64,000 bases of DNA. It comes from an uncultured Bacteroidales bacterium (lineage in GTDB: Bacteria > Bacteroidota > Bacteroidia > Bacteroidales > Paludibacteraceae). Shown piece after piece: positions 10,275 through 63,998 of this stretch. Position 1 is the first letter of the stretch, and the number at the start of each line of letters is the position of its first letter. Made by a program: the position numbers and the translations under genes. Location: assembly GCA_946186735.1 (NCBI GenBank), contig CAMHOK010000001.1:446-64445 (forward strand). The letters run 5' to 3'. The notes under the pieces were generated by a model that ran no database searches, was not told where the DNA came from, and saw only the letters and a program-made list of their open reading frames with translations.

Positions 10275-11150
10275 TTATTTGTTTGTTGTCAGTATTTTTA
10301 CGCCTGCCACTTCGGTGCTCAGCTCGCCTATGTTATCATACACTTCATCCACAGCGGTCATTATTCTTATGAAGTCGCAGTAGTCTAATCTCACGCTGTT
10401 GCCGTGGTCGTCAACAGCCCAGTCGAGGTCGAAACTGATGCCGTCGGCATCGCTGTTAGGTTTGTTGTCGGCATATCCGTAGTCGAGCACTTTCTGTGCG
10501 ATAGTGCCGTTGAACACCTGGTGGTGTGAGGCGAGACAGGTGCCGGAGACGGTGATGACGGTATCTTCTATCCACTCAGGGAAATAGGGTTGTGTATGGA
10601 AGCGGTTGCGCAGGGTGGTGTCGCTCTTGTGCCATGTCTTGGTGTAGTGGTGGCGGGTGAGCGGGTTGTTGTATTCAGAGCCTGCCAACTCATACCACTC
10701 GTCGTCGGGTAAGGCGTTGTTGTTGAGGTCTTGACTGACATACACTATGCCCGGTTCGCTCGACCCGTATTCTGCGTTCGATTGCATCAAGAAAGCGTTG
10801 CCTAAGACTTGGAAGTCGTAGGCTGAGGGGCGGTTGTTCACTTTCTGCCTGAAGCAGACGGTTACATACCCACCGAAGCCTCCTAAGGAGATGAGTGAGT
10901 TGGTGTTGAGAGCTTCTTGTGCTTTGCGGCACATGTCAGCGTGTGTGTCGCCCTGTTCGTAGGTAGGCATAATATTGACGAACTGCCCCATAGCCGGACA
11001 ATACTCTATGACCATGAGCGGTTGTTCGTCGGCGGGCTCTTCTCCGTGATGTGGCTTAGAGCAACCCACACACAAAAGGACAAGCGCTAACGCACTCGCC
11101 ATAAGACACCTAAAGAGCTTTCGTTGTGTAATAGTCAGTTGTTCTCTCAT
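10275..11150 (-). CDS. Putative cell-surface lipoprotein, first gene of the B12-riboswitch operon
   Basis: Signal/lipobox-like ALALVLLCVGCSK. Lies directly downstream of the riboswitch. No specific family recognised with certainty. Confidence 0.55.
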   Translation of the reverse strand: MREQLTITQRKLFRCLMASALALVLLCVGCSKPHHGEEPADEQPLMVIEYCPAMGQFVNIMPTYEQGDTHADMCRKAQEALNTNSLISLGGFGGYVTVCFRQKVNNRPSAYDFQVLGNAFLMQSNAEYGSSEPGIVYVSQDLNNNALPDDEWYELAGSEYNNPLTRHHYTKTWHKSDTTLRNRFHTQPYFPEWIEDTVITVSGTCLASHHQVFNGTIAQKVLDYGYADNKPNSDADGISFDLDWAVDDHGNSVRLDYCDFIRIMTAVDEVYDNIGELSTEVAGVKILTTNK

Positions 11151-11184
11151 GCTTTATGTCTCCTATCCTCGGGAGCCAATAAAA

Positions 11185-11372
11185 CTCAATGATGGCAGGT
11201 CTTCCGGCTTGTGATGCTTGCTCTTGCCTTCCCATCCGCTGTTTGGCGGACAGTGGCTTGAGACTTAGAGCAAACGTTCAATCACTTACGGCTGCGGGAC
11301 AGCGCAGGAGTCGCACCTGCTTCCCATCTTAGTCAGTCGTGCTCGATGAGACGACTGAAACCACCATATCTT
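11185..11372 (-). promoter_or_regulatory. Cobalamin (B12) riboswitch
   Basis: The minus strand reads ATGGTGG...GGGAAGCAGGTGCGACTCCTGCGCTGTCCCGCAGCCGTAAG...GCCACTGTCCGCC...AAGCCGGAAGACCTGCCATCAT. The last element is a full B12 box (plus-strand 11195-11211). P1 pairing ATGGTGG/CTGCCAT is possible. Confidence 0.85.
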
Positions 11373-11396
11373 ATCGTTAATCTTAAACGACGCGGC

Positions 11397-14086: not shown

Positions 14087-14132
14087 TCTAACAGCGCAGC
14101 GGTCTAACCTCTAACAGCGCAGCGGTCTAACC
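14087..14132. repeat. Intercistronic tandem repeat array, 2 x 23 nt (TCTAACAGCGCAGCGGTCTAACC)
   Basis: Two perfect tandem copies. The holB stop codon (14127-14129) lies inside copy 2. The array ends 18 nt before the PSP1 start. Confidence 0.95.
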
Positions 14133-15269
14133 TCTCTTTATTAACAAGATCATTTGCAGGCTCAGGTCGAAGAAGATCATTTTTGCGTTTCCGTTTTGTT
14201 CTATCTGTCGTTGAGCGAGCGTTAGTTGTTGCATTATCTGTTCTACATTATGCTCGTTGATGAAGGGTGCGAACTTCGAAGAGAACTGTTGTTCGGCGTT
14301 GGTCATGTAGTTGATCTTGGGTTGTTGGTAGTTAGCTATGAAGTTCTCTCTTACGAGTCGTTGTGCATATTGCAGGAAGGCTTTTTGTCGTTCTCTGCCG
14401 AAGGTGGAAGCCGCCATCTCTTCGCTCCATTTTTTCATATCGAGCAGTGCATCCACTTGTTTTTTGTGTCCCACGAGCCACGCGTTCCGCATGAGTCTTT
14501 GGAAGGAGGCGAACATGCGGTTGTTGTCTTCGGAGGTATTGATTGTCTGCAGAGCCTTGAGCCAACTGCCGGCTGCTATATGTGCTACGGCTTGGCTCTC
14601 CTCCGTGCTTATGTTGAAGCGTTGGTTGAGTGCGGTGGCTATCTGCTCTTCGCTGAGCAATCCGACGGGTCGTTGTTGTACGCGCGAGAGGATAGTGGGT
14701 AGCAGCTGGTCGGGCTCTTCGGAGACGAGGAGGAAGATGGTTTTCTCGGGCGGCTCTTCAAGTATCTTAAGCAGTTTGTTGGCGGCGGTGGTGTTCATCT
14801 TCTCCGGTAGCCAGATGATCATCACTTTGTAGCCGTTGCCATAAGCTTTGAGTGATAACTTGCGCAGTATCTCACCGCTCTCTTTCTCGTAGATCATCCC
14901 TTGTTTGGTCTCCACTCCGAGTTTGATGTACCAGTCGTTGAGGTCGAAATAAGTCTTTTCGAGTATGAGCTGTTGGAAGAGTGGTGCGAAGGTGTCGCAT
15001 ACTTCACCTTTCTCTACTATAGGGAAGACGAAGTGGAGGTCGGGGTGTTGCAGTTTGCTATATTGCAGGCATGTCGGGCAGTGTCCGCAAGAGTCGGTGT
15101 CGGTAGGGTGTTCGCATGCCATATATTGGGCATAGGCAAGTGCCAGTTGCATCTTCCCCACGCCTCTGCTTCCGGTGAAGAGTTGTGCATGTGCCACTTG
15201 TCCTGTCCTCAGCGATTGCCGGAGGGCTTGTTTGACATCTTCTTGTCCTATGACATCTTTAAACTGCAT
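14127..15269 (-). CDS. holB: DNA polymerase III subunit delta'
   Basis: AAA+ clamp-loader motifs HAQLFTGSRGVGK, the Zn-module C..C..C, and SRVQ (SRC-like). Confidence 0.85.
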   Translation of the reverse strand: MQFKDVIGQEDVKQALRQSLRTGQVAHAQLFTGSRGVGKMQLALAYAQYMACEHPTDTDSCGHCPTCLQYSKLQHPDLHFVFPIVEKGEVCDTFAPLFQQLILEKTYFDLNDWYIKLGVETKQGMIYEKESGEILRKLSLKAYGNGYKVMIIWLPEKMNTTAANKLLKILEEPPEKTIFLLVSEEPDQLLPTILSRVQQRPVGLLSEEQIATALNQRFNISTEESQAVAHIAAGSWLKALQTINTSEDNNRMFASFQRLMRNAWLVGHKKQVDALLDMKKWSEEMAASTFGRERQKAFLQYAQRLVRENFIANYQQPKINYMTNAEQQFSSKFAPFINEHNVEQIMQQLTLAQRQIEQNGNAKMIFFDLSLQMILLIKRG

Positions 15270-15875: not shown

Positions 15876-15883
15876 GTTGATTT

Positions 15884-15921
15884 TGATTATTCCATTACTG
15901 TTTGATTATTCCATTACTGTT
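15884..15921. repeat. Perfect 19-nt tandem duplication (TGATTATTCCATTACTGTT x2) spanning the SPOR gene stop codon
   Basis: Copy 2 contains the last codons and the stop of the 15906..16331 gene. Copy 1 fills most of the spacer to the folE start. Confidence 0.95.
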
Positions 15922-16340: not shown

Positions 16341-16398
16341 CTAACTTCTAACAGTGAAACGGTCTAACAGTGAAACGGTCTAACAGCGCAGCGGTCTA
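16341..16398. repeat. Intercistronic tandem repeat array, 3 x 16 nt (CTAACAGTGAAACGGT x2, CTAACAGCGCAGCGGT) plus partial units
   Basis: Read directly from the sequence. The next partial unit (CTA) is the stop codon of the uridine-kinase-like gene. Confidence 0.95.
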
Positions 16399-18129
16399 AT
16401 ATCTAAACGAGCTTCCTCCGACGAACTCGCGTAGCAGCGATGTTGGCGGTATTGCTTTTTCGGAGATGGGCACGAAGTATTGCAGGAACTTGAGCATGCG
16501 GTGTGCCTCGGTATATTCTTCGCAGAACTTAGGCACCTCGGCAAGTATGCGTTCGGCATGTCTCTTGAGCACCGACAGTTCGAAGAGCAGAGCGGAGTTG
16601 AACATGACGTCGGCTTCTTCTTGGAAGGGGTAGATCCATTTTTTCTCGCCTCTCTGTACGCTCTCGTATCTGGCTATGGTCTCTCGTGCCGAGTAGTTAC
16701 GATAGCGGTAGTCTCTGACGATGCGTCTGAGCAGTCGGGTGTCGGTGGTGGGTATCCAGTTGTGGTTGTCGAGGTTGATGGTGGTTAGTGCCGACACATA
16801 GATCTTGAAGGTGGCTTCGCGCGGCATGTTAGGCATGAGCGAGGGGTTGAGGGCATGTATGCCTTCGAGGATGATGACGGTGTTGTCTTCTATCTGCACC
16901 TTGCGTCCCACCCATTGGCGTTTGCCGGTCTCGAAGTTATACTCAGGTATGTCTATCTCTTTGCCTTGTAGCAGGTCGTTCATCTGTTCGCGGAACAGAG
17001 GCAGGTCGAGCGCGTTGATATCTTCGAAGTCATATTCGCCATTCTCGTCTTTAGGTGTGTCCACACGATTGACGAAATAGTTGTCCATAGAGATGACCAC
17101 GGGCATTATTCCGTTGACGCGCAGCTGTATGCGCAGGCGTTTGGAGAAGGTGGTCTTACCTGACGATGACGGACCTGAGATGAGCACGAACTTAGGTCTG
17201 CCGTTCTCGCGGTTGGTGATCATGTCGGCAATCTGTGCCACTTTCTTTTCTTGCAGGGCTTCAGAGAGCTTGATGATCTCTTCCACTTTGTTGCTCCGGC
17301 AGATGCGATTGAAGTCGCTCACGTCGCGTATGCCCAGCAGCTTGTTCCAGCTCAGATACTCGCTGAAAGAGTTGAACATCTTGTCTTGAACGATGGTATC
17401 TTCCAGCTTGACGGGGTTCTGACGGTCGGGTATGCGTATGAGCATGCCGTCGAAATACGGTTCGATATCGAAGATGCTCAGATAGCCGGACGAAGGCATG
17501 AGTACTCCCATGTAATAGTCGATATAGTCGCCCATGGAGAAGTATCGGCAATAAGGCATACCCAAGGTCTCGAAGATACTGCCGTCTTCTTCAGAGCGCT
17601 CTTTGAATAGCTTCATCACCTCCACAGTGCGCTTCTCTTGGTTGATGATTGGGCGGTCTTCGGCAATGATGTCAAGCACCCGCTGCTTGATATCCTTGAT
17701 TATCTGCTTTGTGAGAGGTATCTGCTCACCTTTCTCGCCTTGCAAGGTGCAGTAGTAACCCTTGCATATAGGGTGTTCGATGCGCAGGTCGGCTCCCGCA
17801 TACAACTCTCTGATGGCGCAAGCAATGACCATGCTCAATGTTCTTACATAGCAACGCATACCGCTCGGGCAACTGATATCAACAAACTCAATATCCTTGG
17901 GCCGATAGATGAGGAAATGGAGGTCTTCTAATTTGTAGTTGACATGGGCAGCCACCACCTTGTAAGGCAGAGAGAGACCTATGAGTTGGTAGATCTCCAA
18001 GAGTGAACTGCCGCGTGGCACTTCGTAATACTGCTTGTTGTTCTTGCAGTAGATAGTGACGGTCTGTGTTTTAGGCATTGCGGATAGTGTCTTGTTGACT
18101 TCCACATCCGAGGGGAAAGTAGGTTGCAT
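16396..18129 (-). CDS. Uridine kinase-family nucleoside kinase with N-terminal TGS/ThrRS-like extension
   Basis: P-loop ISGPSSSGKTTFSKRL and a Udk-like C-terminal half. The ATG at 18129 is preferred over the TTG at 18138. Confidence 0.75.
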   Translation of the reverse strand: MQPTFPSDVEVNKTLSAMPKTQTVTIYCKNNKQYYEVPRGSSLLEIYQLIGLSLPYKVVAAHVNYKLEDLHFLIYRPKDIEFVDISCPSGMRCYVRTLSMVIACAIRELYAGADLRIEHPICKGYYCTLQGEKGEQIPLTKQIIKDIKQRVLDIIAEDRPIINQEKRTVEVMKLFKERSEEDGSIFETLGMPYCRYFSMGDYIDYYMGVLMPSSGYLSIFDIEPYFDGMLIRIPDRQNPVKLEDTIVQDKMFNSFSEYLSWNKLLGIRDVSDFNRICRSNKVEEIIKLSEALQEKKVAQIADMITNRENGRPKFVLISGPSSSGKTTFSKRLRIQLRVNGIMPVVISMDNYFVNRVDTPKDENGEYDFEDINALDLPLFREQMNDLLQGKEIDIPEYNFETGKRQWVGRKVQIEDNTVIILEGIHALNPSLMPNMPREATFKIYVSALTTINLDNHNWIPTTDTRLLRRIVRDYRYRNYSARETIARYESVQRGEKKWIYPFQEEADVMFNSALLFELSVLKRHAERILAEVPKFCEEYTEAHRMLKFLQYFVPISEKAIPPTSLLREFVGGSSFRY

Positions 18130-27486: not shown

Positions 27487-28698
27487 ATGCCGCTTAGTTG
27501 GAAAATAGCATGGCGTTATCTGTTTGCCAAGAAGAAGCATAATGCTATCAATATTGTCTCGATAGTGTCAGCTTTGGGTGTGGCAGTAGCTACGGCGGCG
27601 ATGGTGTGTGTGTTGTCGGTGATGAACGGTTTCTCGATGGTAGTAGAAGAGATGTTCTCTTTGTTCAACCCCGATCTGAGGATAACGACAACGACGGGTC
27701 AGTCGTTCGACGGCCATACCGCTGTTTTTGACTCTATTGCTCAGATGAGCGAGGTGAGTGTGTTCTCGGAGACGATAGAGCAGACGGCTCTGGTGCAGTT
27801 CTCGGGTCGTCAGCTGACAGCCACCGTTAAGGGTGTGGACGATAAGTTCGAGCAGCTCACAGGCATCGACAGCATCATCATCGACGGCGACTACGAGGTG
27901 TATGATGGTGCTTTCTACCGTACGGTGATGGGACGGGGACTTGCCAACCAGATAGGTATAGGTGCACATTTTGTATCGGGCATGAGACTATATGCTCCCA
28001 AACGCTATGAGAAAGTGAACATGCTCAACCCAGAGAGCTCGCTCAACAGAGAGAGCGTGTGGATATCGGGTGTGTTCGCTGTCAATCAAGTTGAGTATGA
28101 CGACCGATACATGCTGGTGGATGTGGAGCTGGCACGGCACTTGTTCGATTTCGCTCCTACAGAGGTTACTGCCATCGAACTGGGTGTGAGAGACGGTGTG
28201 AAGGTGAGTGAGGTTGCCAAGCGTATCGAGAAGCTGTTAGGCAACGACTATCAGGTGGCCGACCGCTATCATCAGCAGGAGGATTTCTTTCGTATATACG
28301 AGATAGAGAAACTGCTCACCATCCTTCTTCTTGCGTTCATCATACTCATAGCCTCGCTCAACATCATCGGTGCCTTGTCGATGCAAATGATTGACAAGAC
28401 AGAGGATATACGCATCTTCCGGACCATGGGCTTAGACCTGCAAGGCATAAAGCGTGTGTTCTTCTACGAAGGCTTTCTTGTCTCGATGCTCGGTGCGTTG
28501 GTAGGAGTGGTGGTAGGTGTGGGTGTGTGCTTGATACAAGAGTTTTTCGGCATCATCAAGTTGGGCAATGGCAGCGACTATGTCATCTCTGCTTACCCTG
28601 TGGATGTGCAGACGCCTGATGTGCTGCTTGTCTTGCTCATCGTCTTGCTGATAGGTATGGCGGCAGCGTATGTGCCGGTCAGATCGCTGCGCTGTTAG
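27487..28698 (+). CDS. FtsX-like ABC transporter permease (LolE-like)
   Basis: MacB-like N-terminal TM helix, periplasmic domain and a C-terminal FtsX 3-TM module. Confidence 0.8.
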   Translation: MPLSWKIAWRYLFAKKKHNAINIVSIVSALGVAVATAAMVCVLSVMNGFSMVVEEMFSLFNPDLRITTTTGQSFDGHTAVFDSIAQMSEVSVFSETIEQTALVQFSGRQLTATVKGVDDKFEQLTGIDSIIIDGDYEVYDGAFYRTVMGRGLANQIGIGAHFVSGMRLYAPKRYEKVNMLNPESSLNRESVWISGVFAVNQVEYDDRYMLVDVELARHLFDFAPTEVTAIELGVRDGVKVSEVAKRIEKLLGNDYQVADRYHQQEDFFRIYEIEKLLTILLLAFIILIASLNIIGALSMQMIDKTEDIRIFRTMGLDLQGIKRVFFYEGFLVSMLGALVGVVVGVGVCLIQEFFGIIKLGNGSDYVISAYPVDVQTPDVLLVLLIVLLIGMAAAYVPVRSLRC

Positions 28699-28723
28699 AC
28701 CGTTGCGCTGTTAAAGGTTAGAG
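28683..28723. repeat. Intercistronic repeat array of the same family, opposite-strand orientation (ATCGCTGCGCTGTTAG, ACCGTTGCGCTGTTAA, AGGTTAGAG)
   Basis: Unit 1 encodes the last residues (SLRC) and the TAG stop of the permease gene. The array ends 4 nt before the next ATG. Confidence 0.9.
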
Positions 28724-37052: not shown

Positions 37053-37065
37053 ATTTTTAGATTTT

Positions 37066-37122
37066 AGAGGTTAGACCGCTTTGCTGTTAGACCGCTTTGC
37101 TGTTAGACCGCTTCGCTGTTAT
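37066..37122. repeat. Intercistronic repeat array, 3 x 16 nt (ACCGCTTTGCTGTTAG x2, ACCGCTTCGCTGTTAT) plus GAGGTTAG prefix
   Basis: Same family, but here inverted relative to the direction of the flanking minus-strand genes. Overlaps the stop codon of the 37119..37673 gene. Confidence 0.9.
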
Positions 37123-48113: not shown

Positions 48114-48190
48114 GGCCCCGTAGCTTAGTTGAATAGAGTGTCAGATTCCGGTTCTGAAGGTCCTGGGTTTGAGTCCCAGCGGGGTCACCA
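48114..48190 (+). tRNA. tRNA-Arg (anticodon CCG), CCA encoded
   Basis: A cloverleaf can be drawn. Acceptor stem is GGCCCCG/CGGGGTC, anticodon stem TCAGA/TCTGA, loop TTCCGGT, T arm CTGGG-TTTGAGT-CCCAG, and the 3' end is ACCA. Confidence 0.88.
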
Positions 48191-49859: not shown

Positions 49860-49931
49860 AGTAAAATACTCGATATCCGCAAATATTTTTTGCGATTTTC
49901 CGAAGATTGTGGGTACTTTGTTCCAAAGATT

Positions 49932-49990
49932 GTGGGTTTGAGTCCCGGTGGGGTCACCAAACAGATCATGCAGACCTCAAACAGTTGAAT
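49932..49990 (+). repeat. Direct repeat copy 2 (displaced tRNA-Arg 3' end plus flank), att-like
   Basis: 56/59 identical to 48164..48222. Preceded by a duplicated 12-mer AAGATTGTGGGT (49903-49914 and 49925-49936). Confidence 0.9.
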
Positions 49991-50011: not shown

Positions 50012-50053
50012 GAAGCATCTTCTCTGAATTTGACAAGATTCAGAGAAGATGCT
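50012..50053. terminator. Perfect 16-bp hairpin (AGCATCTTCTCTGAAT / ATTCAGAGAAGATGCT, 8-nt loop)
   Basis: Read directly. Lies between the att-like repeat and the repeat array downstream of the GH57 gene. There is no strong T-tract on either strand. Confidence 0.45.
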
Positions 50054-50054
50054 C

Positions 50055-50140
50055 TCTAATTTCTAACAGCGCAGCGGTCTAACCCCTCACAGCGTAGCGT
50101 TCTCACAGCTCAGCGGTCTAACCTCTAACAGCGCAGCGTT
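50055..50140. repeat. Largest array of the 16-nt repeat family (about 4 full units with CTAACC(C/T) short units)
   Basis: The units are CTAACAGCGCAGCGGT, CTCACAGCGTAGCGTT, CTCACAGCTCAGCGGT and CTAACAGCGCAGCGTT. The array ends 1 nt before the GH57 stop codon. Confidence 0.9.
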
Positions 50141-50141
50141 C

Positions 50142-51422
50142 TTATTGCTGTTTTCTTTTGCGCAGTTTCTTTATCTCTTCTTCGAGTTCGGCTATCTCTT
50201 TCTCTTGGTTGTTGATGGTGGTGAGCAGTTCGTTGAGTTCTTCGTTCTCGATGGTGGTAGGATATTGTTCGTCAACGAGTTGCAGGAAGTCGGAGAGGAT
50301 GTTCATATAGTTGATGAAGGCATCGTAAGGCGACTCGTAAGGTGAGCCTTCGACATGTTGGTGGCTCATGTAGTGGAGATAGGTGATGTCTTGTAGTACG
50401 AGCCAGTCAGCCTTGAGTCGTTTGTCTTGGCAGAGGTGTACTCTCTCGCTCACGGCATAGAGTTTATTGAGGGCTTCTTGTTGCAGGTCGTTGCCATTGT
50501 ATGCAGCAAGGTCTTTGGCTTCTCCTGTCCATGTGAGAGCGTAGGGTACGCTTACGGTACCTGAGACGGCTATCTTCTTGCTAACCTCGGCAGGTGTGAG
50601 GAAGCCTATCTCGCGTTCGAGGGCATAGAAAGGCAGAGCTTTGAGGAAGTCGAAGATACCTGTCTGAGCGTTCTGTCTGATACCGAAAGTCTCGGCTCCG
50701 AGCCAGATGTTTACCACCTCTTCTTCGTTAGGCAGTTGGCTTATCTGCATGGCATAGCGTTCGGCATCCATGGGGTAGTTTTTCCAAGCGGGGTCAGAGA
50801 AATGGAAGGCGAGCTCATCGCTGAGTTGGTTGTTGCGGAGCAGCACTTTGAGCTTGGGCGAGAGGGCGGAGTTATATACATAGTTAGGTGATTTCCATGA
50901 CAGTATATGTTTGGCTCCTTCGGTCATTATAGTCTTATATCCCATTTGGTTGACTGTCTCGCCTATCTCGTCGGAGTAGAGCAGTTCGGTGTTCCATACG
51001 GTAGTGGGTTTGACTGAGAAGAGGTTGTTGAGTTGCTGAGCATGCTGTTTGAGTTGTGCTTCGAAGTCGGCTTTGTTGTACTCGGCAGCGAGTGAGTGTG
51101 CATAGGGTGTGAGTACGAACTCCACACACTTGGTGGCGGCGAGCTCTTTGAGGCAGTCGATCATCTCGGGTGCGTACTGTTGGAACATGTCGATGAGCAG
51201 TCCTGAAACCGACAGAGCGCAGTGGAACTTCTGGTGGGACATGCGTATCATGTCTGCCAATGTGCGGCAGAGTGGCAGATAACTGGTCTGGACGAGCCAT
51301 GAGATGTTATCTTCGGTCTGCATGTCGTCGTAGTAGTAATGGTCTTGTCCGATGTCGAAGAAACGATAGCGTTTGAGCACATACGGAGCGTGCATCTGGA
51401 AGCAAAAAGATATATTTTTCAT
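50142..51422 (-). CDS. Glycoside hydrolase family 57 (alpha-amylase-like) with C-terminal coiled coil
   Basis: The N-terminus FCFQMHAPYVLKRYRFFDIGQDHYYYDD is typical of Bacteroidales GH57 proteins. Synteny with GT4 and debranching-enzyme genes. Confidence 0.8.
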   Translation of the reverse strand: MKNISFCFQMHAPYVLKRYRFFDIGQDHYYYDDMQTEDNISWLVQTSYLPLCRTLADMIRMSHQKFHCALSVSGLLIDMFQQYAPEMIDCLKELAATKCVEFVLTPYAHSLAAEYNKADFEAQLKQHAQQLNNLFSVKPTTVWNTELLYSDEIGETVNQMGYKTIMTEGAKHILSWKSPNYVYNSALSPKLKVLLRNNQLSDELAFHFSDPAWKNYPMDAERYAMQISQLPNEEEVVNIWLGAETFGIRQNAQTGIFDFLKALPFYALEREIGFLTPAEVSKKIAVSGTVSVPYALTWTGEAKDLAAYNGNDLQQEALNKLYAVSERVHLCQDKRLKADWLVLQDITYLHYMSHQHVEGSPYESPYDAFINYMNILSDFLQLVDEQYPTTIENEELNELLTTINNQEKEIAELEEEIKKLRKRKQQ

Positions 51423-59715: not shown

Positions 59716-60690
59716 TTATTTGAAGGAGTCTTCGATGATGTCGGTGAGCACCTCTGTAATGTTGAGGTTAGCGGCTCTTACCTGTTGTGGAATGAAGCTG
59801 GTGGCAGTCATTCCGGGGGTGGTGTTGATATCCATCACTTTAGGTATGCCGTTCTCGATGATATAGTCGGCACGGATGATTCCGTGTGCACCGATGAGGT
59901 CGTAGATACGGTCGGTGAGTTGTTGTACGCGCTGTGTCATCTGCTCGGAGATGCGGGCGGGTGTTATCTCATCGGACTCGCCATAGTACTTGGCAGCGTA
60001 GTCGAAATATTCGTTCTTAGTCACCACCTCGGTGAGTGGGAAGATGACGGAGTGTTGTTTGGTCTTGTACATGCCGCAGGTCACTTCTGTTCCTTGCATG
60101 AAGGCTTCGACGATCACTTCCTCTCCTTCGTTGAAAGCGAGTGAGATGGCGGGTCGTATCTGTTCGGGAGTCTTCACTTTGGTGCATCCGTAGCTGCTTC
60201 CTCCTGTGTTAGTCTTGATGAAGCATGGCAGTCCTACTTGTTGTATTATCTGTTCGTCGGTCATGTCGTCGGGATGTCGGAGCAGGACGGAGGTGGCGAT
60301 GTCGATGCCGAAAGCTTTGAGGAAGTGGTTGCAAGTGAACTTATTGCAAGTGAGAGCTGCAGCGAGTACGTTACAGCATGAGTAGGGCAGGTGCAGCATG
60401 TCGAAATAGCCTTGCAGTTGTCCGCTCTCGCCGGGTATGCCGTGGATGGTGATGTAGGCGTAGTCGAAATGGATGGTCTGTTGGTTGAGAGTGAAGGAGA
60501 AGTCGTTCTTGTTGACATCTACTGTTGTGTTGTCTGCAAGGAGCACTTTCCAATCAGCGGCTCTCATGACCACTATATATAGGTTGTAGCGTTCTTTATC
60601 GATGAAAGAGTAGAGTCCTTGTGCGCTGCGGAGCGACACCTCATGTTCGCTCGACTCGCCTCCTGCCACTATTGCTATTGTTCGTTTCAT
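59716..60690 (-). CDS. ddl: D-alanine--D-alanine ligase
   Basis: IAIVAGGESSEHEVSLRSA N-terminus and ATP-grasp C-terminal part (INTTPGMT). Confidence 0.92.
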   Translation of the reverse strand: MKRTIAIVAGGESSEHEVSLRSAQGLYSFIDKERYNLYIVVMRAADWKVLLADNTTVDVNKNDFSFTLNQQTIHFDYAYITIHGIPGESGQLQGYFDMLHLPYSCCNVLAAALTCNKFTCNHFLKAFGIDIATSVLLRHPDDMTDEQIIQQVGLPCFIKTNTGGSSYGCTKVKTPEQIRPAISLAFNEGEEVIVEAFMQGTEVTCGMYKTKQHSVIFPLTEVVTKNEYFDYAAKYYGESDEITPARISEQMTQRVQQLTDRIYDLIGAHGIIRADYIIENGIPKVMDINTTPGMTATSFIPQQVRAANLNITEVLTDIIEDSFK

Positions 60691-60744
60691 AGTTTGGTTG
60701 AATTTGTTTTGTGTTTGATTGTTGGTTTTATGTTTGTGTTTGAT

Positions 60745-61428
60745 TTATTGTCTTTTTAAGTTGAGTTTGTAGCCTCTGCCTCTGAGTCCTTGTATTTGTA
60801 TGTCGGGGTCGTCTTCGAGGTAGTGTTTGATATGGTTGACATAGACGCTCAGTGAGCGTTGTGCGAAATAGCTGTCGGTTTTCCACACTCGCCTTAGTAT
60901 GAATCGTTTTTCCACCACTTTGTTGATGTTCTGAGCGAGCAGAGCGAGCACTTCGTTCTCTTTGACGGAGAGGTGTTGGCTTTGTGTGTTGTGTGATAAT
61001 GTTTGTGCTTCGGTGTCGAGAGTGAAGATGCCTATCTGCATTTTTGTCTGTTGTCTTCGGAGTGCGAGTTGTGGTCGTCTGAGCCAACTGTTTATCTTAC
61101 AGACGAGCACATCGATGTCGTATGGTTTGGTTACGTACTCATCGGCTCCTGCCCTATAGGCTTGGCATATATCTTCTTTCTCGTCTTTTGATCCGATGAC
61201 GATGACGGGTAGTGTCTCGTCCACTTCTCTGAACTCCCCTACCAGGTGCATAGCGGCTGCGTTGTTAGCGGCACAATCGACGATAGCGAGGTCGTACACA
61301 GCTTCTTGCAGGCGTTCGATGATGAGGTCGGTATTGCTGAGGCTATCAACGTGAAAGCCTTTGCTCTTCAGGCTCTGCGAGAGGAGCGAGGCGTAGGCAA
61401 TATCGGTAGAGGTGAGAAGGATGTTCAT
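60745..61428 (-). CDS. OmpR/PhoB-type response regulator with atypical receiver N-terminus
   Basis: Receiver domain (DLAIVD, VTKP) plus a winged-helix output domain (RSLSVYVNHIKHYL...GRGYKL). The ATG at 61428 is preferred to the TTG at 61437. Confidence 0.8.
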   Translation of the reverse strand: MNILLTSTDIAYASLLSQSLKSKGFHVDSLSNTDLIIERLQEAVYDLAIVDCAANNAAAMHLVGEFREVDETLPVIVIGSKDEKEDICQAYRAGADEYVTKPYDIDVLVCKINSWLRRPQLALRRQQTKMQIGIFTLDTEAQTLSHNTQSQHLSVKENEVLALLAQNINKVVEKRFILRRVWKTDSYFAQRSLSVYVNHIKHYLEDDPDIQIQGLRGRGYKLNLKRQ

Positions 61429-61430
61429 AT

Positions 61431-61472
61431 AAAACAAAGGGTGTAAGGTGTGGTTAGGTCCACACCTTACAC
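61431..61472 (-). terminator. Rho-independent terminator after pepD
   Basis: Perfect 13-bp stem GTGTAAGGTGTGG/CCACACCTTACAC. On the minus strand it is followed by CCTTTGTTTTAT. Confidence 0.7.
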
Positions 61473-63502: not shown

Positions 63503-63527
63503 GGCGTTTAGTGTTTAGAGTTTGCGT

Positions 63528-63998
63528 TTAGAGAGATATTTCGAGCACTTCGAACTCCATGAGTCCGGCGGGCACTTGTACTTTTGCCACTTGTCCTACT
63601 TTCTTCCCGAGCAGAGCTTGTGCTATGGGAGTCTTGACCGACAGTTTGCCTTCTTTGAAGTTGGCTTCGCTCTCGGTTACGAGTTGGTAGGACATGATAG
63701 CTCCGGTCTTGACGTTCTTGATCTTGACCTTGGTGAGCACCTGTACTTCTTTGGTGTTGATACGGCTCTCGTCGATGATGCGTGCATCCATGATTTTCTC
63801 TTTGAGCAGTGCGATTTTCGACTCCAGTTTGCCTTGTTCTTCTTTTGCTGCATCATATTCAGCGTTCTCGCTCAGATCTCCTTTGTCGCGAGCCTCCTGA
63901 ATGGCGGCAATAACGCGAGGACGTTCAACGCCCTCAAGATAGACGAGTTCGTCTTTAAGTTTCTGCAGACCATCTGCAGTCATATAGATATTTGCCAT
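63528..63998 (-). CDS. greA: Transcription elongation factor GreA
   Basis: Coiled-coil N-terminus with DLSENAEYDAAKEEQ and a GreA C-terminal domain. Confidence 0.93.
   Translation of the reverse strand: MANIYMTADGLQKLKDELVYLEGVERPRVIAAIQEARDKGDLSENAEYDAAKEEQGKLESKIALLKEKIMDARIIDESRINTKEVQVLTKVKIKNVKTGAIMSYQLVTESEANFKEGKLSVKTPIAQALLGKKVGQVAKVQVPAGLMEFEVLEISL

What the first reader, a model, noticed from the sequence alone, without database searches (positions are those of the whole stretch)
50055..50140. Dispersed family of about 16-nt tandem intercistronic repeats (CTAACAGCGCAGCGGT-like) at five loci in 64 kb
The same short unit occurs in tandem at five sites:
- 14087-14132 (2 x 23 nt, each a 16-mer plus CTAACC);
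- 16341-16398 (3 x 16 nt);
- 28683-28723 (2 units plus a partial unit, opposite strand);
- 37066-37122 (3 x 16 nt, opposite strand);
- 50055-50140 (about 4 units with short CTAACC spacers).

Within an array the units are near-identical. Between arrays they differ at a few positions (GCGCAG, GTGAAA, GCAAAG), which suggests local amplification of diverged founders. Every array lies in the short spacer directly after a gene. Four of the five fill almost the whole gap between co-directional, operon-like genes: holB|PSP1, udk-like|SPOR, ftsX-like|lipoprotein and DUF4827-like|glmM. There are no unique spacers, no flanking inverted repeats and no obvious internal palindrome. They are therefore neither CRISPR arrays nor classical REP or MITE elements. 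Minisatellite-type arrays have been reported in another Bacteroidales species (the Porphyromonas gingivalis 23-nt repeat element, cited from memory). I cannot tell whether these are related. Possible roles include protein or RNA binding sites, mRNA processing or stability determinants, or copy-number-variable spacers that tune translational coupling.
Basis: seen in the sequence. Interest (0 to 1): 0.65.

Follow-up and report, generated by a model that had tools for sequence, protein, structure and literature searches.

The report
Mini-hairpin repeat arrays in Bacteroidota
A 16-23-base unit, a tiny DNA hairpin flanked by the word GTTAGA, sits in short tandem runs that vary in copy number, between (and in other genomes sometimes inside) genes of this Bacteroidales genome and many other Bacteroidota; it behaves like a small selfish repeat rather than a gene-control signal, and I found no prior description of it.

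Summary
The five arrays are real: 16 matches to the unit against 0.57 expected by chance, 14 of them in the arrays. Each unit is GTTAGA-CC-[mini-hairpin]-CT-GTTAGA. The centre is a perfect small palindrome in 53 of 76 unique variants (3.8 expected), with compensatory stem changes. On the TCTAAC strand its loops follow the published stable DNA mini-hairpin rule, GCGNAGC or GCGNNAGC.

The family occurs across Bacteroidota (Bacteroidales, Flavobacteriales, Saprospiraceae) but patchily. There were no units in 452 kb from 80 relatives, and essentially none in phages. Copy number differs between strains with identical flanking proteins (1-2, 2-3 and 2-5 units). Orientation is random relative to genes and to GC skew. 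In other genomes, arrays also lie in frame inside conserved enzymes such as MiaB, in linkers. Arrays are polar: NNN-AGA-[CC-hairpin-CTGTTAGA]n, often starting on a stop codon.

Best reading: an undescribed REP-like or MIRU-like selfish repeat that is seeded next to AGA, grows and shrinks by slippage, and persists where it does no harm. A dedicated regulatory role is poorly supported. What disperses it is unknown. The P. gingivalis BrickBuilt 23-nt repeat is unrelated.

The parts
14087..14135 (-). Array 1. Two 23-nt units (GTTAGACCGCTGCGCTGTTAGA plus 1 nt) between holB and PSP1. The holB stop codon is the TAG of the first GTTAGA. The mRNA sense is GUUAGA.
   Evidence: Strains carry 1 or 2 units. 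The same junction is occupied in the distant relative L050.
16341..16406 (-). Array 2. Three 16-nt units (centres GCTGCGC, GTTTCAC, GTTTCAC) plus flanking hexamers, between the PRK/udk-like gene and SPOR. The PRK stop codon is the TAG of the first hexamer, ATTAGA.
   Evidence: Strains carry 2 or 3 units and differ by a 7-nt heptamer indel. The junction is empty in 34 relatives.
28678..28723 (+). Array 3. GTCAGATCGCTGCGCTGTTAGA, then CCGTTGCGCTGTTAAA, then GGTTAGA. The first unit encodes the last residues of FtsX (…VRSLRC*), and the stop codon is the TAG of the second hexamer. The array ends 3 nt before the next gene's ATG.
   Evidence: The orthologous junction is empty in L037.
37055..37122 (+). 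Array 4. Heptamers TTTTAGA, TTTTAGA and GGTTAGA, then three 16-nt units (centres GCTTTGC, GCTTTGC, GCTTCGC). The genes are on the minus strand, so the mRNA reads UCUAAC. The DUF4827 stop codon (TAA) lies in the terminal GATAAC. The array ends a few nt from the glmM start codon.
   Evidence: The orthologous junction is empty in L087.
50055..50145 (-). Array 5. Four units with mixed 16- and 23-nt spacing, running from the GH57 stop codon (TAA inside the hexamer ATAAGA) to the terminator-like hairpin.
   Evidence: Strains with an identical GH57 protein carry 2, 3, 4 or 5 units between fixed flanks.
50014..50053 (.). An 18-bp perfect hairpin that scores as terminator-like, directly downstream of array 5. 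It is context, not part of the repeat family.
63503..63533 (+). A run of heptamers without hairpins (GTTTAGT GTTTAGA GTTTGC GTTTAGA) filling another intercistronic gap, 3 nt from a start codon on the opposite strand. It may be a related form lacking the hairpin module.
   Evidence: Its relationship to the family is inferred from sequence similarity only.

Best explanation
The arrays belong to a family of very small, non-coding, non-autonomous repeats found across Bacteroidota. I found no prior description of it.

The unit is (GTT)AGA-CC-[mini-hairpin]-CT-GTTAGA. On the TCTAAC strand the hairpin is a GCGNAGC or GCGNNAGC-type DNA mini-hairpin, and it probably forms when that strand is single-stranded DNA.

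Units reach new sites by insertion immediately 3' of a host AGA. The machinery is unknown: either an enzyme acting in trans or microhomology-mediated template switching. Each unit ends in GTTAGA, so it recreates a direct repeat. Replication slippage between these repeats, helped by the hairpin, then adds and removes 16-nt, 23-nt and 7-nt steps. This produces short arrays whose copy number varies.

Copies persist only where they do no harm: in intergenic spacers, overlapping a stop codon (TAGA, TAAGA or TGAGA), or in frame within protein linkers. In this window they fill four intercistronic gaps and one 3' UTR.

Any effect on gene expression is probably incidental. Examples would be a change in cistron spacing, or stop codons in all three frames once three units are present.

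Shown here: anatomy, hairpin covariation, loop rule, copy-number variation between strains, phylogenetic spread and patchiness, random orientation, intragenic insertions, boundary polarity.

Inferred: single-stranded DNA as the relevant form, slippage as the engine of length change, AGA as the target, and selfishness.
For: - Anatomy and hairpin: 53 of 76 unique centres are perfect hairpins, against 3.8 in shuffles (maximum 10 of 1000). Stems range from 2 to 6 bp.
- Covariation: G-C changes to A-T in 8 of 25 units and C-G to T-A in 9 of 25. None has a one-sided G·U change. No shuffle of 500 reaches the observed value, and shifted registers collapse.
- Loop rule: 150 of 192 triloops are GNA on the TCTAAC strand (20 of 37 unique, about 6% expected). 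The closing pair is C-G 28 times and T-A 9 times, never G-C or A-T. Tetraloops are GNNA, including non-GNRA forms. This matches the mini-hairpin DNA motif, which is far more stable as DNA (Tm 76.5 C) than as RNA (39 C) (PMC13037366), and its dependence on the closing pair (PMC3201870).
- Copy number varies in strains with identical flanking proteins: 1 or 2, 2 or 3, and 2 to 5 units.
- Spread: more than 100 loci in Bacteroidales, 17 in Flavobacteriales and 2 in Saprospiraceae. None lies outside the phylum once six microsatellite false positives are removed.
- Patchiness: no unit in 452 kb from 80 relatives, and the PRK|SPOR junction is empty in all 34 relatives that could be compared.
- Orientation is random: <A< 40, >A> 37, >A< 20, <A> 17. 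GC skew is positive in 54 loci and negative in 44.
- Insertions into conserved proteins: L060 MiaB has 13 extra residues (39 nt = 16 + 23) in a linker relative to B. uniformis MiaB 7MJV. In L020 the array fills the linker between Fer4_20 and Pyr_redox_2. The stop-containing frame is avoided by TAA to TTA changes or by unit lengths summing to a multiple of three.
- Polarity: the 5' end lies a median 25 nt from a gene boundary against 110 nt for the 3' end (Wilcoxon p = 6e-6). In 11 of 57 cases the stop codon is the TAG of the first GTTAGA.
- Boundary asymmetry: the 5'-most hexamer keeps only AGA (34 against 12 with two or more mismatches; 19 against 1 with three).
Against: - No mobilising gene was found. 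There is no IS200- or RAYT-like ORF in the roughly 850 kb of array-bearing loci, and no protein family recurs beside arrays. The HUH queries were written from memory, and whole genomes could not be searched.
- The same flanking sequence persists across orders. REP families usually differ between species, so this hints at constraint by a conserved host factor.
- One orthologous junction (holB|PSP1) is occupied in two lineages only 62-67% identical in protein. This could mean long-term retention or a functional site.
- There is no orientation bias relative to GC skew, which a strictly lagging-strand single-stranded DNA mechanism might have produced.
- Nearest-neighbour folding shows no stability signal. 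The review says such models do not capture mini-hairpins.
- The polarity statistics include non-independent orthologous sites and rest on crude ORF-based gene calls.
Confidence: 0.55

Rival explanations
1. The arrays are functional cis-elements: tandem binding sites, on DNA or mRNA, for a conserved Bacteroidota protein. They would set operon polarity, mRNA stability or processing, or the coupling between adjacent cistrons in a phylum that makes little use of Shine-Dalgarno sites. Copy number would act as a tuning knob.
For: - The flanks GTTAGACC and CTGTTAGA are identical across orders of the phylum.
- Arrays sit against stop and start codons.
- The holB|PSP1 junction is occupied in two distant lineages.
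- The arrays fold less than shuffled sequence as RNA (z up to +3.4), which would suit an unstructured leader.
- TAACTGA repeats in similar positions have been proposed as post-transcriptional sites (PMC4679880).
Against: - Orientation relative to the flanking genes is random.
- Relatives lack arrays at the same junctions.
- Copy number differs among strains with identical proteins.
- The same arrays occur in frame inside unrelated enzymes.
- The flanking genes share no common function.
- The loop rule and the absence of G·U pairs point to DNA rather than RNA.
- Nothing in Rfam matches, even at E <= 5.
Confidence: 0.15
2. The arrays serve the host at the level of single-stranded DNA. Runs of mini-hairpins that bind SSB poorly would act as priming, pausing or recombination sites during replication or repair.
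For: - GNA and GNNA loops with a C-G closing pair occur on one defined strand.
- Mini-hairpin sequences occur at primase-dependent origins (G4, ssiA), and such sequences bind SSB poorly (PMC13037366).
- The core is conserved across the phylum.
Against: - Orientation shows no bias relative to GC skew.
- The distribution among close relatives is patchy.
- Copy number is unstable.
- Placement in gene spacers and protein linkers looks like tolerance, not design.
Confidence: 0.1
3. There is no mobility. Each array arose independently in place. A chance AGA/GTTAGA-rich spacer acquired a small quasi-palindrome. Template-switch 'correction' perfected the palindrome, and slippage then amplified it. The family resemblance would be convergent.
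For: - Heptamer runs without hairpins exist, such as 63503-63533 and the heptamers flanking many arrays.
- From my own knowledge, quasi-palindrome template switching can produce double 'compensatory' changes without selection. That would fit the absence of one-sided intermediates.
Against: - Independent origin cannot easily explain identical 8-nt flanks on both sides of variable hairpins in more than 100 loci across three orders.
- It also cannot easily explain the same units inserted into the linkers of conserved enzymes.
Confidence: 0.08
4. The arrays are chance similarity or assembly artefacts.
For: Some short-read contigs end or carry N-gaps inside arrays.
Against: - 16 hits against 0.57 expected.
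- The arrays are shorter than a sequencing read.
- The same flanks and units appear in independent assemblies from different samples and pipelines.
Confidence: 0.01

Closest known systems
REP / BIME elements (repetitive extragenic palindromes, mobilised by RAYT HUH transposases; GTAG- or CGTC-tagged; PMC3733652)
   Same: Both are very short hairpin-forming repeats with a conserved sequence tag beside the stem. Both are high-copy, mostly extragenic and found in both orientations. Both are occasionally found inside genes, are patchy among relatives, and are often placed just after stop codons.
   Different: The tag is GTTAGA/AGACC, not GTAG or CGTC. The stem is only 2-6 bp. Units form direct head-to-tail arrays that share a hexamer, not inverted pairs (REPINs or BIMEs). 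No RAYT was found. The flanks are the same across a whole phylum rather than specific to a species.
MIRUs (mycobacterial interspersed repetitive units; PMC12548453)
   Same: Both are dispersed, tandemly repeated units at gene boundaries within operons. Both vary in copy number between strains, appear mobile, and are placed so that flanking genes are little disturbed.
   Different: MIRU units are much longer (40-100 bp from my own knowledge). They carry a short ORF that is translationally coupled to the downstream gene. The units here are 16-23 nt, carry stop codons rather than an ORF, and contain a mini-hairpin.
TAACTGA heptamer direct repeats of Beggiatoaceae, Cyanobacteria and a few Bacteroidetes (PMC4679880), and cyanobacterial STRR heptamers (own knowledge)
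   Same: Both are dispersed intergenic tandem repeats of a short word. Both give stop codons in all frames, often overlap an upstream stop codon or lie just before a start codon, and have a sporadic phylogenetic distribution with no known mechanism.
   Different: The word is different (NGTTAGA against TAACTGA). A hairpin module sits between the words here. TAACTGA repeats are mostly in one orientation relative to the downstream start codon, whereas these are in random orientation.
Mini-hairpin DNA motif GCGNAGC / GCGNNAGC (PMC13037366; closing-pair dependence PMC3201870)
   Same: On the TCTAAC strand the unit centres read GCGCAGC, GCGAAGC, GCGTAGC, GCGGAGC, GCGATAGC or GCGCCAGC. They have the required 5'-C…G-3' closing pair.
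   Different: That motif is a structural element described at phage and plasmid priming sites and promoters. It has not been described as the core of a dispersed chromosomal repeat family. Its stability in these units was not measured here.
BrickBuilt, the 23-nt minisatellite MITE of Porphyromonas gingivalis (PMC4596501)
   Same: It is an intergenic 23-nt tandem repeat in a member of the Bacteroidales, with copy-number differences between strains.
   Different: The unit sequence is unrelated (AGAYCATARTATCCTCTCRTRTG). It is embedded between leader and tail segments that carry IS5-type terminal inverted repeats. It is restricted to P. gingivalis and P. gulae. None of these features is present here.

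Membership tests
CRISPR array | Repeats of 24-48 nt separated by unique spacers of similar length | tested here: not met
   Units are contiguous with periods of 16 or 23 nt and no spacers.
REP / BIME (RAYT-associated) | A short imperfect palindrome able to form a hairpin | tested here: met
   53 of 76 unique centres are perfect hairpins against 3.8 expected. Covariation is seen in the stem.
REP / BIME (RAYT-associated) | A conserved GTAG (or CGTC) tetranucleotide at one end | tested here: not met
   The conserved flanks are GTTAGACC and CTGTTAGA. Neither GTAG nor CGTC is present.
REP / BIME (RAYT-associated) | A cognate RAYT (Y1 HUH transposase) in the genome, often flanked by the repeats | tested here: inconclusive
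   No hit in the window or in about 850 kb of array-bearing loci, and no recurrent neighbouring gene. The queries were written from memory, and whole genomes could not be searched.
REP / BIME (RAYT-associated) | Typical arrangement as inverted pairs or mosaics (REPIN, BIME) | tested here: not met
   Units within an array are always head-to-tail direct repeats.
MITE | Terminal inverted repeats bracketing the element, with target-site duplications | tested here: not met
   No inverted repeat brackets any of the five arrays.
MIRU-type intercistronic VNTR | Tandem direct repeats at gene junctions, with copy number varying between strains | tested here: met
   1 or 2, 2 or 3, and 2 to 5 units in strains with identical flanking proteins.
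MIRU-type intercistronic VNTR | The unit carries a short ORF whose stop and start codons overlap those of the flanking genes (translational coupling) | tested here: not met
   Each hexamer carries a stop codon (TAG or TAA). With periods of 16 or 23 nt, three units close all three frames. No ORF spans an intergenic array.
TAACTGA / STRR-type heptamer repeats | Tandem repeats of the specific heptamer (TAACTGA) with a consistent orientation towards the downstream start codon | tested here: not met
   The word here is NGTTAGA, and orientation is random. The heptamer-run component, as at 37055-37075 and 63503-63533, is similar only in kind.
BrickBuilt (P. gingivalis) | The 23-nt consensus AGAYCATARTATCCTCTCRTRTG, with leader and tail segments carrying IS5-like terminal inverted repeats | tested here: not met
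   The consensus from PMC4596501 shares nothing with the unit. No leader, tail or terminal inverted repeats are present.
Mini-hairpin DNA (GCGNAGC / GCGNNAGC) | The sequence GC-GNA-GC or GC-GNNA-GC with a 5'-C…G-3' closing pair | tested here: met
   150 of 192 triloops are GNA. The closing pair is C-G 28 times and T-A 9 times. Tetraloops are GNNA.
Mini-hairpin DNA (GCGNAGC / GCGNNAGC) | Extraordinary thermal stability and nuclease resistance as single-stranded DNA | not testable with these tools
   Nearest-neighbour folding does not capture this (PMC13037366 says so). Melting or NMR measurements are needed.

The most novel reading that the evidence does not exclude
This would be the smallest mobile DNA unit known in bacteria. 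A 16-nt cassette (CC-mini-hairpin-CTGTTAGA) would be recognised as a single-stranded DNA hairpin on the TCTAAC strand. An as yet unidentified enzyme conserved in Bacteroidota, acting in trans, would copy or insert it 3' of AGA. Because each insertion recreates its own target, arrays would build themselves. The enzyme could be of HUH type or something new. A variant of this reading is that the host has co-opted the arrays as single-stranded DNA signals.
Probability: 0.2. Interest if true: 0.8.

Novelty: new variant of a known kind. Interest (0 to 1): 0.55.

Why it matters
- It adds a repeat family spanning the whole phylum to Bacteroidota, a group in which small dispersed repeats are poorly catalogued. 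Its design is unusual: a published ultra-stable DNA mini-hairpin motif flanked by direct repeats.
- The arrays are ready-made copy-number markers for telling apart strains of uncultured rumen and gut Bacteroidales in metagenomes.
- They explain why short-read contigs break at these junctions.
- They warn annotators that some 'linker' peptides in enzymes (GLTAQRSNS-like) are translated repeats.
- The conserved flanks, the AGA-anchored polarity and the strand-specific loop rule point to a mechanism acting on single-stranded DNA that has not yet been identified.

Tried and rejected
- Rfam at gathering threshold and at E <= 5 found nothing over the arrays.
- Literature searches for the motif's own sequence and for REP-like repeats in Bacteroidetes or Flavobacteria found no description.
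- The P. gingivalis lead was read and rejected.
- Nearest-neighbour folding as DNA and as RNA gave no stability signal. I judged it uninformative for mini-hairpins, not evidence against them.
- A local IS200/RAYT search with queries written from memory gave no hits. This is a weak test.
- Clustering all ORFs near arrays found no recurrent neighbour. The one apparent recurrence was thioredoxin, more than 6 kb from the array in two of the four loci, and so a coincidence.
- Orientation against GC skew showed no bias.
- A phage scan with an unconstrained centre gave one non-palindromic hit beside a tRNA.
- Promoter and terminator scans did not flag the arrays above chance.
- The holB|PSP1 junction could not be compared in the folE-fetched relatives because the synteny differs. 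It was compared in L050 instead.
- Exact-protein look-ups for DUF4827 and for the lipoprotein found nothing.
- Six pattern hits (L053, L057, L062, L064, L074, L118) were discarded as unrelated GTTAGACC/T microsatellites.

Full report

Yes. Tandem Repeats Finder reports arrays at 14087-14135 (period 23, 2.1 copies, 100% match), 16347-16399 (period 16, 3.3 copies), 37070-37121 (period 16, 3.2 copies) and 50061-50142 (periods 16, 23 and 39). The short array at 28.7 kb is visible in the sequence. The 16-mer CTAACAGCGCAGCGGT with up to 3 mismatches occurs 16 times against 0.57 expected, and no shuffle of 100 reaches 16. Fourteen of those hits lie in the five arrays. The arrays fill intercistronic gaps of 57, 64, 28 and 66 nt. 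The fifth array lies between the GH57 stop codon and an 18-bp terminator-like hairpin.

**2. Anatomy**

I aligned the same junctions from other strains and from other genomes. The unit has a constant frame and a variable centre: GTTAGA-CC-[centre]-CT-GTTAGA. In 16-nt arrays neighbouring units share a hexamer. In 23-nt arrays each unit keeps both hexamers plus one base. Bare heptamers (NGTTAGA) often flank the arrays.

After correcting for the bias of my search pattern, 53 of 76 unique centres are perfect hairpins with loops of 4 nt or fewer. Shuffling gives 3.8 on average and at most 10 in 1000 trials. Stems range from 2 bp (GC-TGC-GC) to 6 bp (GGCTAT-AA-ATAGCC).

On an alignment of the 25 unique 22-nt units, the two variable stem pairs change on both sides together. 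G-C becomes A-T in 8 units and C-G becomes T-A in 9. There are no one-sided G·U intermediates. No shuffle of 500 reaches the observed covariation, and shifted registers collapse.

**3. A strand-specific loop rule**

Read on the TCTAAC strand, 150 of 192 triloops are GNA (20 of 37 unique variants, against about 6% expected). The closing pair is C-G 28 times and T-A 9 times, never G-C or A-T. The tetraloops are GNNA and include forms that are not GNRA (GATA, GCCA, GTTA, GCTA).

This matches the published definition of extraordinarily stable mini-hairpin DNA, GCGNAGC or GCGNNAGC. That motif has a Tm of 76.5 C as DNA against 39 C for the RNA counterpart, and sequences containing it bind SSB poorly (PMC13037366). 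Its stability depends on the closing pair (PMC3201870).

Nearest-neighbour folding shows no stability. The review states that conventional models do not capture this motif, so I treat the energy calculation as uninformative. The loop rule and the lack of G·U pairs suggest that the relevant form is single-stranded DNA of the TCTAAC strand. This is an inference.

**4. Distribution**

By my estimate only a handful were expected by chance. Six are unrelated GTTAGACC/T microsatellites. All the rest are from Bacteroidota. Most are rumen and gut Paludibacteraceae and other Bacteroidales. Seventeen loci are from Flavobacteriales (Kordia, Wocania, Hwangdonia, Mesonia, Crocinitomix, Vicingaceae, Acidiluteibacter and others), and two are from Saprospiraceae.

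The family is nevertheless patchy. Eighty loci fetched by FolE similarity (63-80% identity) hold no unit in 452 kb. The PRK|SPOR junction is empty in all 34 relatives where it could be read. For example, L164 reads TTTAGATATTAG|TTGG where the window reads TTTAGATATTAG|ACCGCTGCGCTGTTAGACC. The DUF4827|glmM and FtsX junctions are empty in L087 and L037. The holB|PSP1 junction is occupied in L050, which is only 62-67% identical in protein, and there too the array starts on the stop codon.

Phage contigs gave one hit. It is non-palindromic and lies beside a tRNA.

**5. Dynamics**

Contigs that encode proteins identical to those of the window differ in unit number:

| Junction | Units seen |
|---|---|
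| holB\|PSP1 | 1 or 2 |
| PRK\|SPOR | 2 or 3, plus a 7-nt heptamer indel |
| After GH57 | 2, 3, 4 or 5, between fixed flanks |

Some short-read contigs end or carry N-gaps inside arrays. The arrays therefore disturb assembly, but they are not artefacts.

**6. Relation to genes**

Among 114 arrays with usable neighbours, orientation is random: <A< 40, >A> 37, >A< 20, <A> 17. The mix of co-directional, convergent and divergent contexts looks like that of ordinary intergenic regions. Orientation does not follow GC skew either (54 positive, 44 negative).

There is, however, a polarity. The GTTAGA 5' end lies a median 25 nt from the nearest gene boundary, and the 3' end a median 110 nt (Wilcoxon p = 6e-6). 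In 11 of the 57 cases with a same-strand upstream gene, the stop codon is exactly the TAG of the first GTTAGA.

The 5'-most hexamer is also more degenerate than the 3'-most one. Hexamers with two or more mismatches number 34 against 12, and those with three mismatches 19 against 1. The 5' hexamer usually keeps only AGA. An array therefore looks like NNN-AGA-[CC-hairpin-CTGTTAGA]n. This also explains why TAGA, TAAGA and TGAGA stop contexts are found at array starts.

These statistics include some orthologous, non-independent sites and rest on ORF-based gene calls. I rate them as moderate support.

**7. Arrays inside genes**

Several long ORFs read through arrays, nearly always in the TCTAAC sense, giving peptides such as GLTAQRSNS. 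The stop-containing frame is avoided in two ways. One is point mutation (TAA to TTA in L093). The other is a set of unit lengths that sum to a multiple of three (18, then 16 + 17, in L020).

The hosts are recognisable enzymes. L060 is MiaB. It carries 13 extra residues (39 nt = 16 + 23) in a linker relative to B. uniformis MiaB, PDB 7MJV. L020 is an NfnB/GltD-type oxidoreductase, and its array lies exactly between the Fer4_20 and Pyr_redox_2 domains. Others are an NRPS adenylation domain and an APH/RapZ_C protein. These are true insertion events. The element is not confined to gene junctions.

**8. Interpretation**

The best fit is a selfish, non-autonomous repeat of the REP or MIRU kind. It is seeded next to AGA, expanded and contracted by slippage between its own direct repeats, and retained only where harmless.

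A dedicated regulatory role is poorly supported, for four reasons: random orientation, empty orthologous junctions, copy-number differences among otherwise identical strains, and in-frame copies within genes.

Three things keep a functional or host-factor reading alive. The flanks are identical across a whole phylum. One junction is occupied in two distant lineages. No mobilising gene was found (a weak test). What disperses the element is unknown.

**9. Comparison with known elements**

- It is not CRISPR, because there are no spacers.
- It is not a MITE, because no inverted repeats bracket the arrays.
- It is not BrickBuilt, whose consensus and architecture are unrelated (PMC4596501).
- It shares the logic of REPs but fails their GTAG/CGTC tag and their inverted-pair arrangement (PMC3733652).
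- It shares the intercistronic copy-number behaviour of MIRUs but not their coupled ORF (PMC12548453).
- It resembles the TAACTGA heptamer arrays in kind but not in sequence, orientation or structure (PMC4679880).
- Rfam holds nothing like it, and I found no paper describing it.

**Verdict**

This is a new variant of a known kind of element, of moderate interest.

Noticed in passing
window 48114-48190 and 49920-49959: tRNA-Arg(CCG) is followed about 1.7 kb downstream by a 40-nt copy of its own 3' half, identical at 35 of 40 positions. The two bracket an HTH/HipA-N/HipA-C (hipBA-type) toxin-antitoxin module. This looks like a small element integrated at the tRNA, with att-like duplication. The 50 kb array and the terminator-like hairpin lie just beyond its right end.
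   Followed up: partly
window 11177-11380 (-): A cobalamin riboswitch (Rfam RF00174, 100.9 bits) lies upstream of the minus-strand gene at 10275-11150.
   Followed up: no
window 15882-15921: A perfect 19-nt tandem duplication (TTTGATTATTCCATTACTG, 2.1 copies, 100% match) lies at the junction between SPOR and folE. It is unrelated in sequence to the GTTAGA family.
   Followed up: no
window 60677-60736: A 19-nt tandem repeat (ATTGTTCGTTTTATGTTTG, 3 copies, 72% match) lies in the gap between the genes at 59716-60690 and 60745-61437. It is unrelated to the family studied.
   Followed up: no
window 63503-63533: A heptamer run without hairpins (GTTTAGT GTTTAGA GTTTGC GTTTAGA) fills another intercistronic gap, 3 nt from a start codon on the opposite strand. 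It may be a hairpin-less relative or precursor of the arrays.
   Followed up: partly
L093 1743-3215 (APH plus RapZ_C protein): Besides the clear in-frame array (residues 163-186), the same protein has a second, degenerate array-like stretch further on (…QRSGLYSVSPKDGLTAQAVVQRSGLSV…). One gene may therefore have been hit twice, or an older copy may be decaying.
   Followed up: no
L152 and L147, PRK|SPOR junction: Relatives that lack the array have other short repeats directly after the same TATTAG stop codon. L152 has GTTTAGA GTGTAGA GTGTAAA GTGTAAA, and L147 has a GTTTAG…CAGTTTAGAG stretch. This junction may be prone to heptamer-type repeats in general.
   Followed up: no
L011 (Wocania) and L068 (Hwangdonia); also L024/L040, L027/L104, L035/L047/L065/L087 and L083/L100/L115: Single units or arrays sit at what appear to be the same orthologous sites in different species or genera. 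Some insertions therefore persist over long periods, even though other junctions turn over quickly.
   Followed up: no
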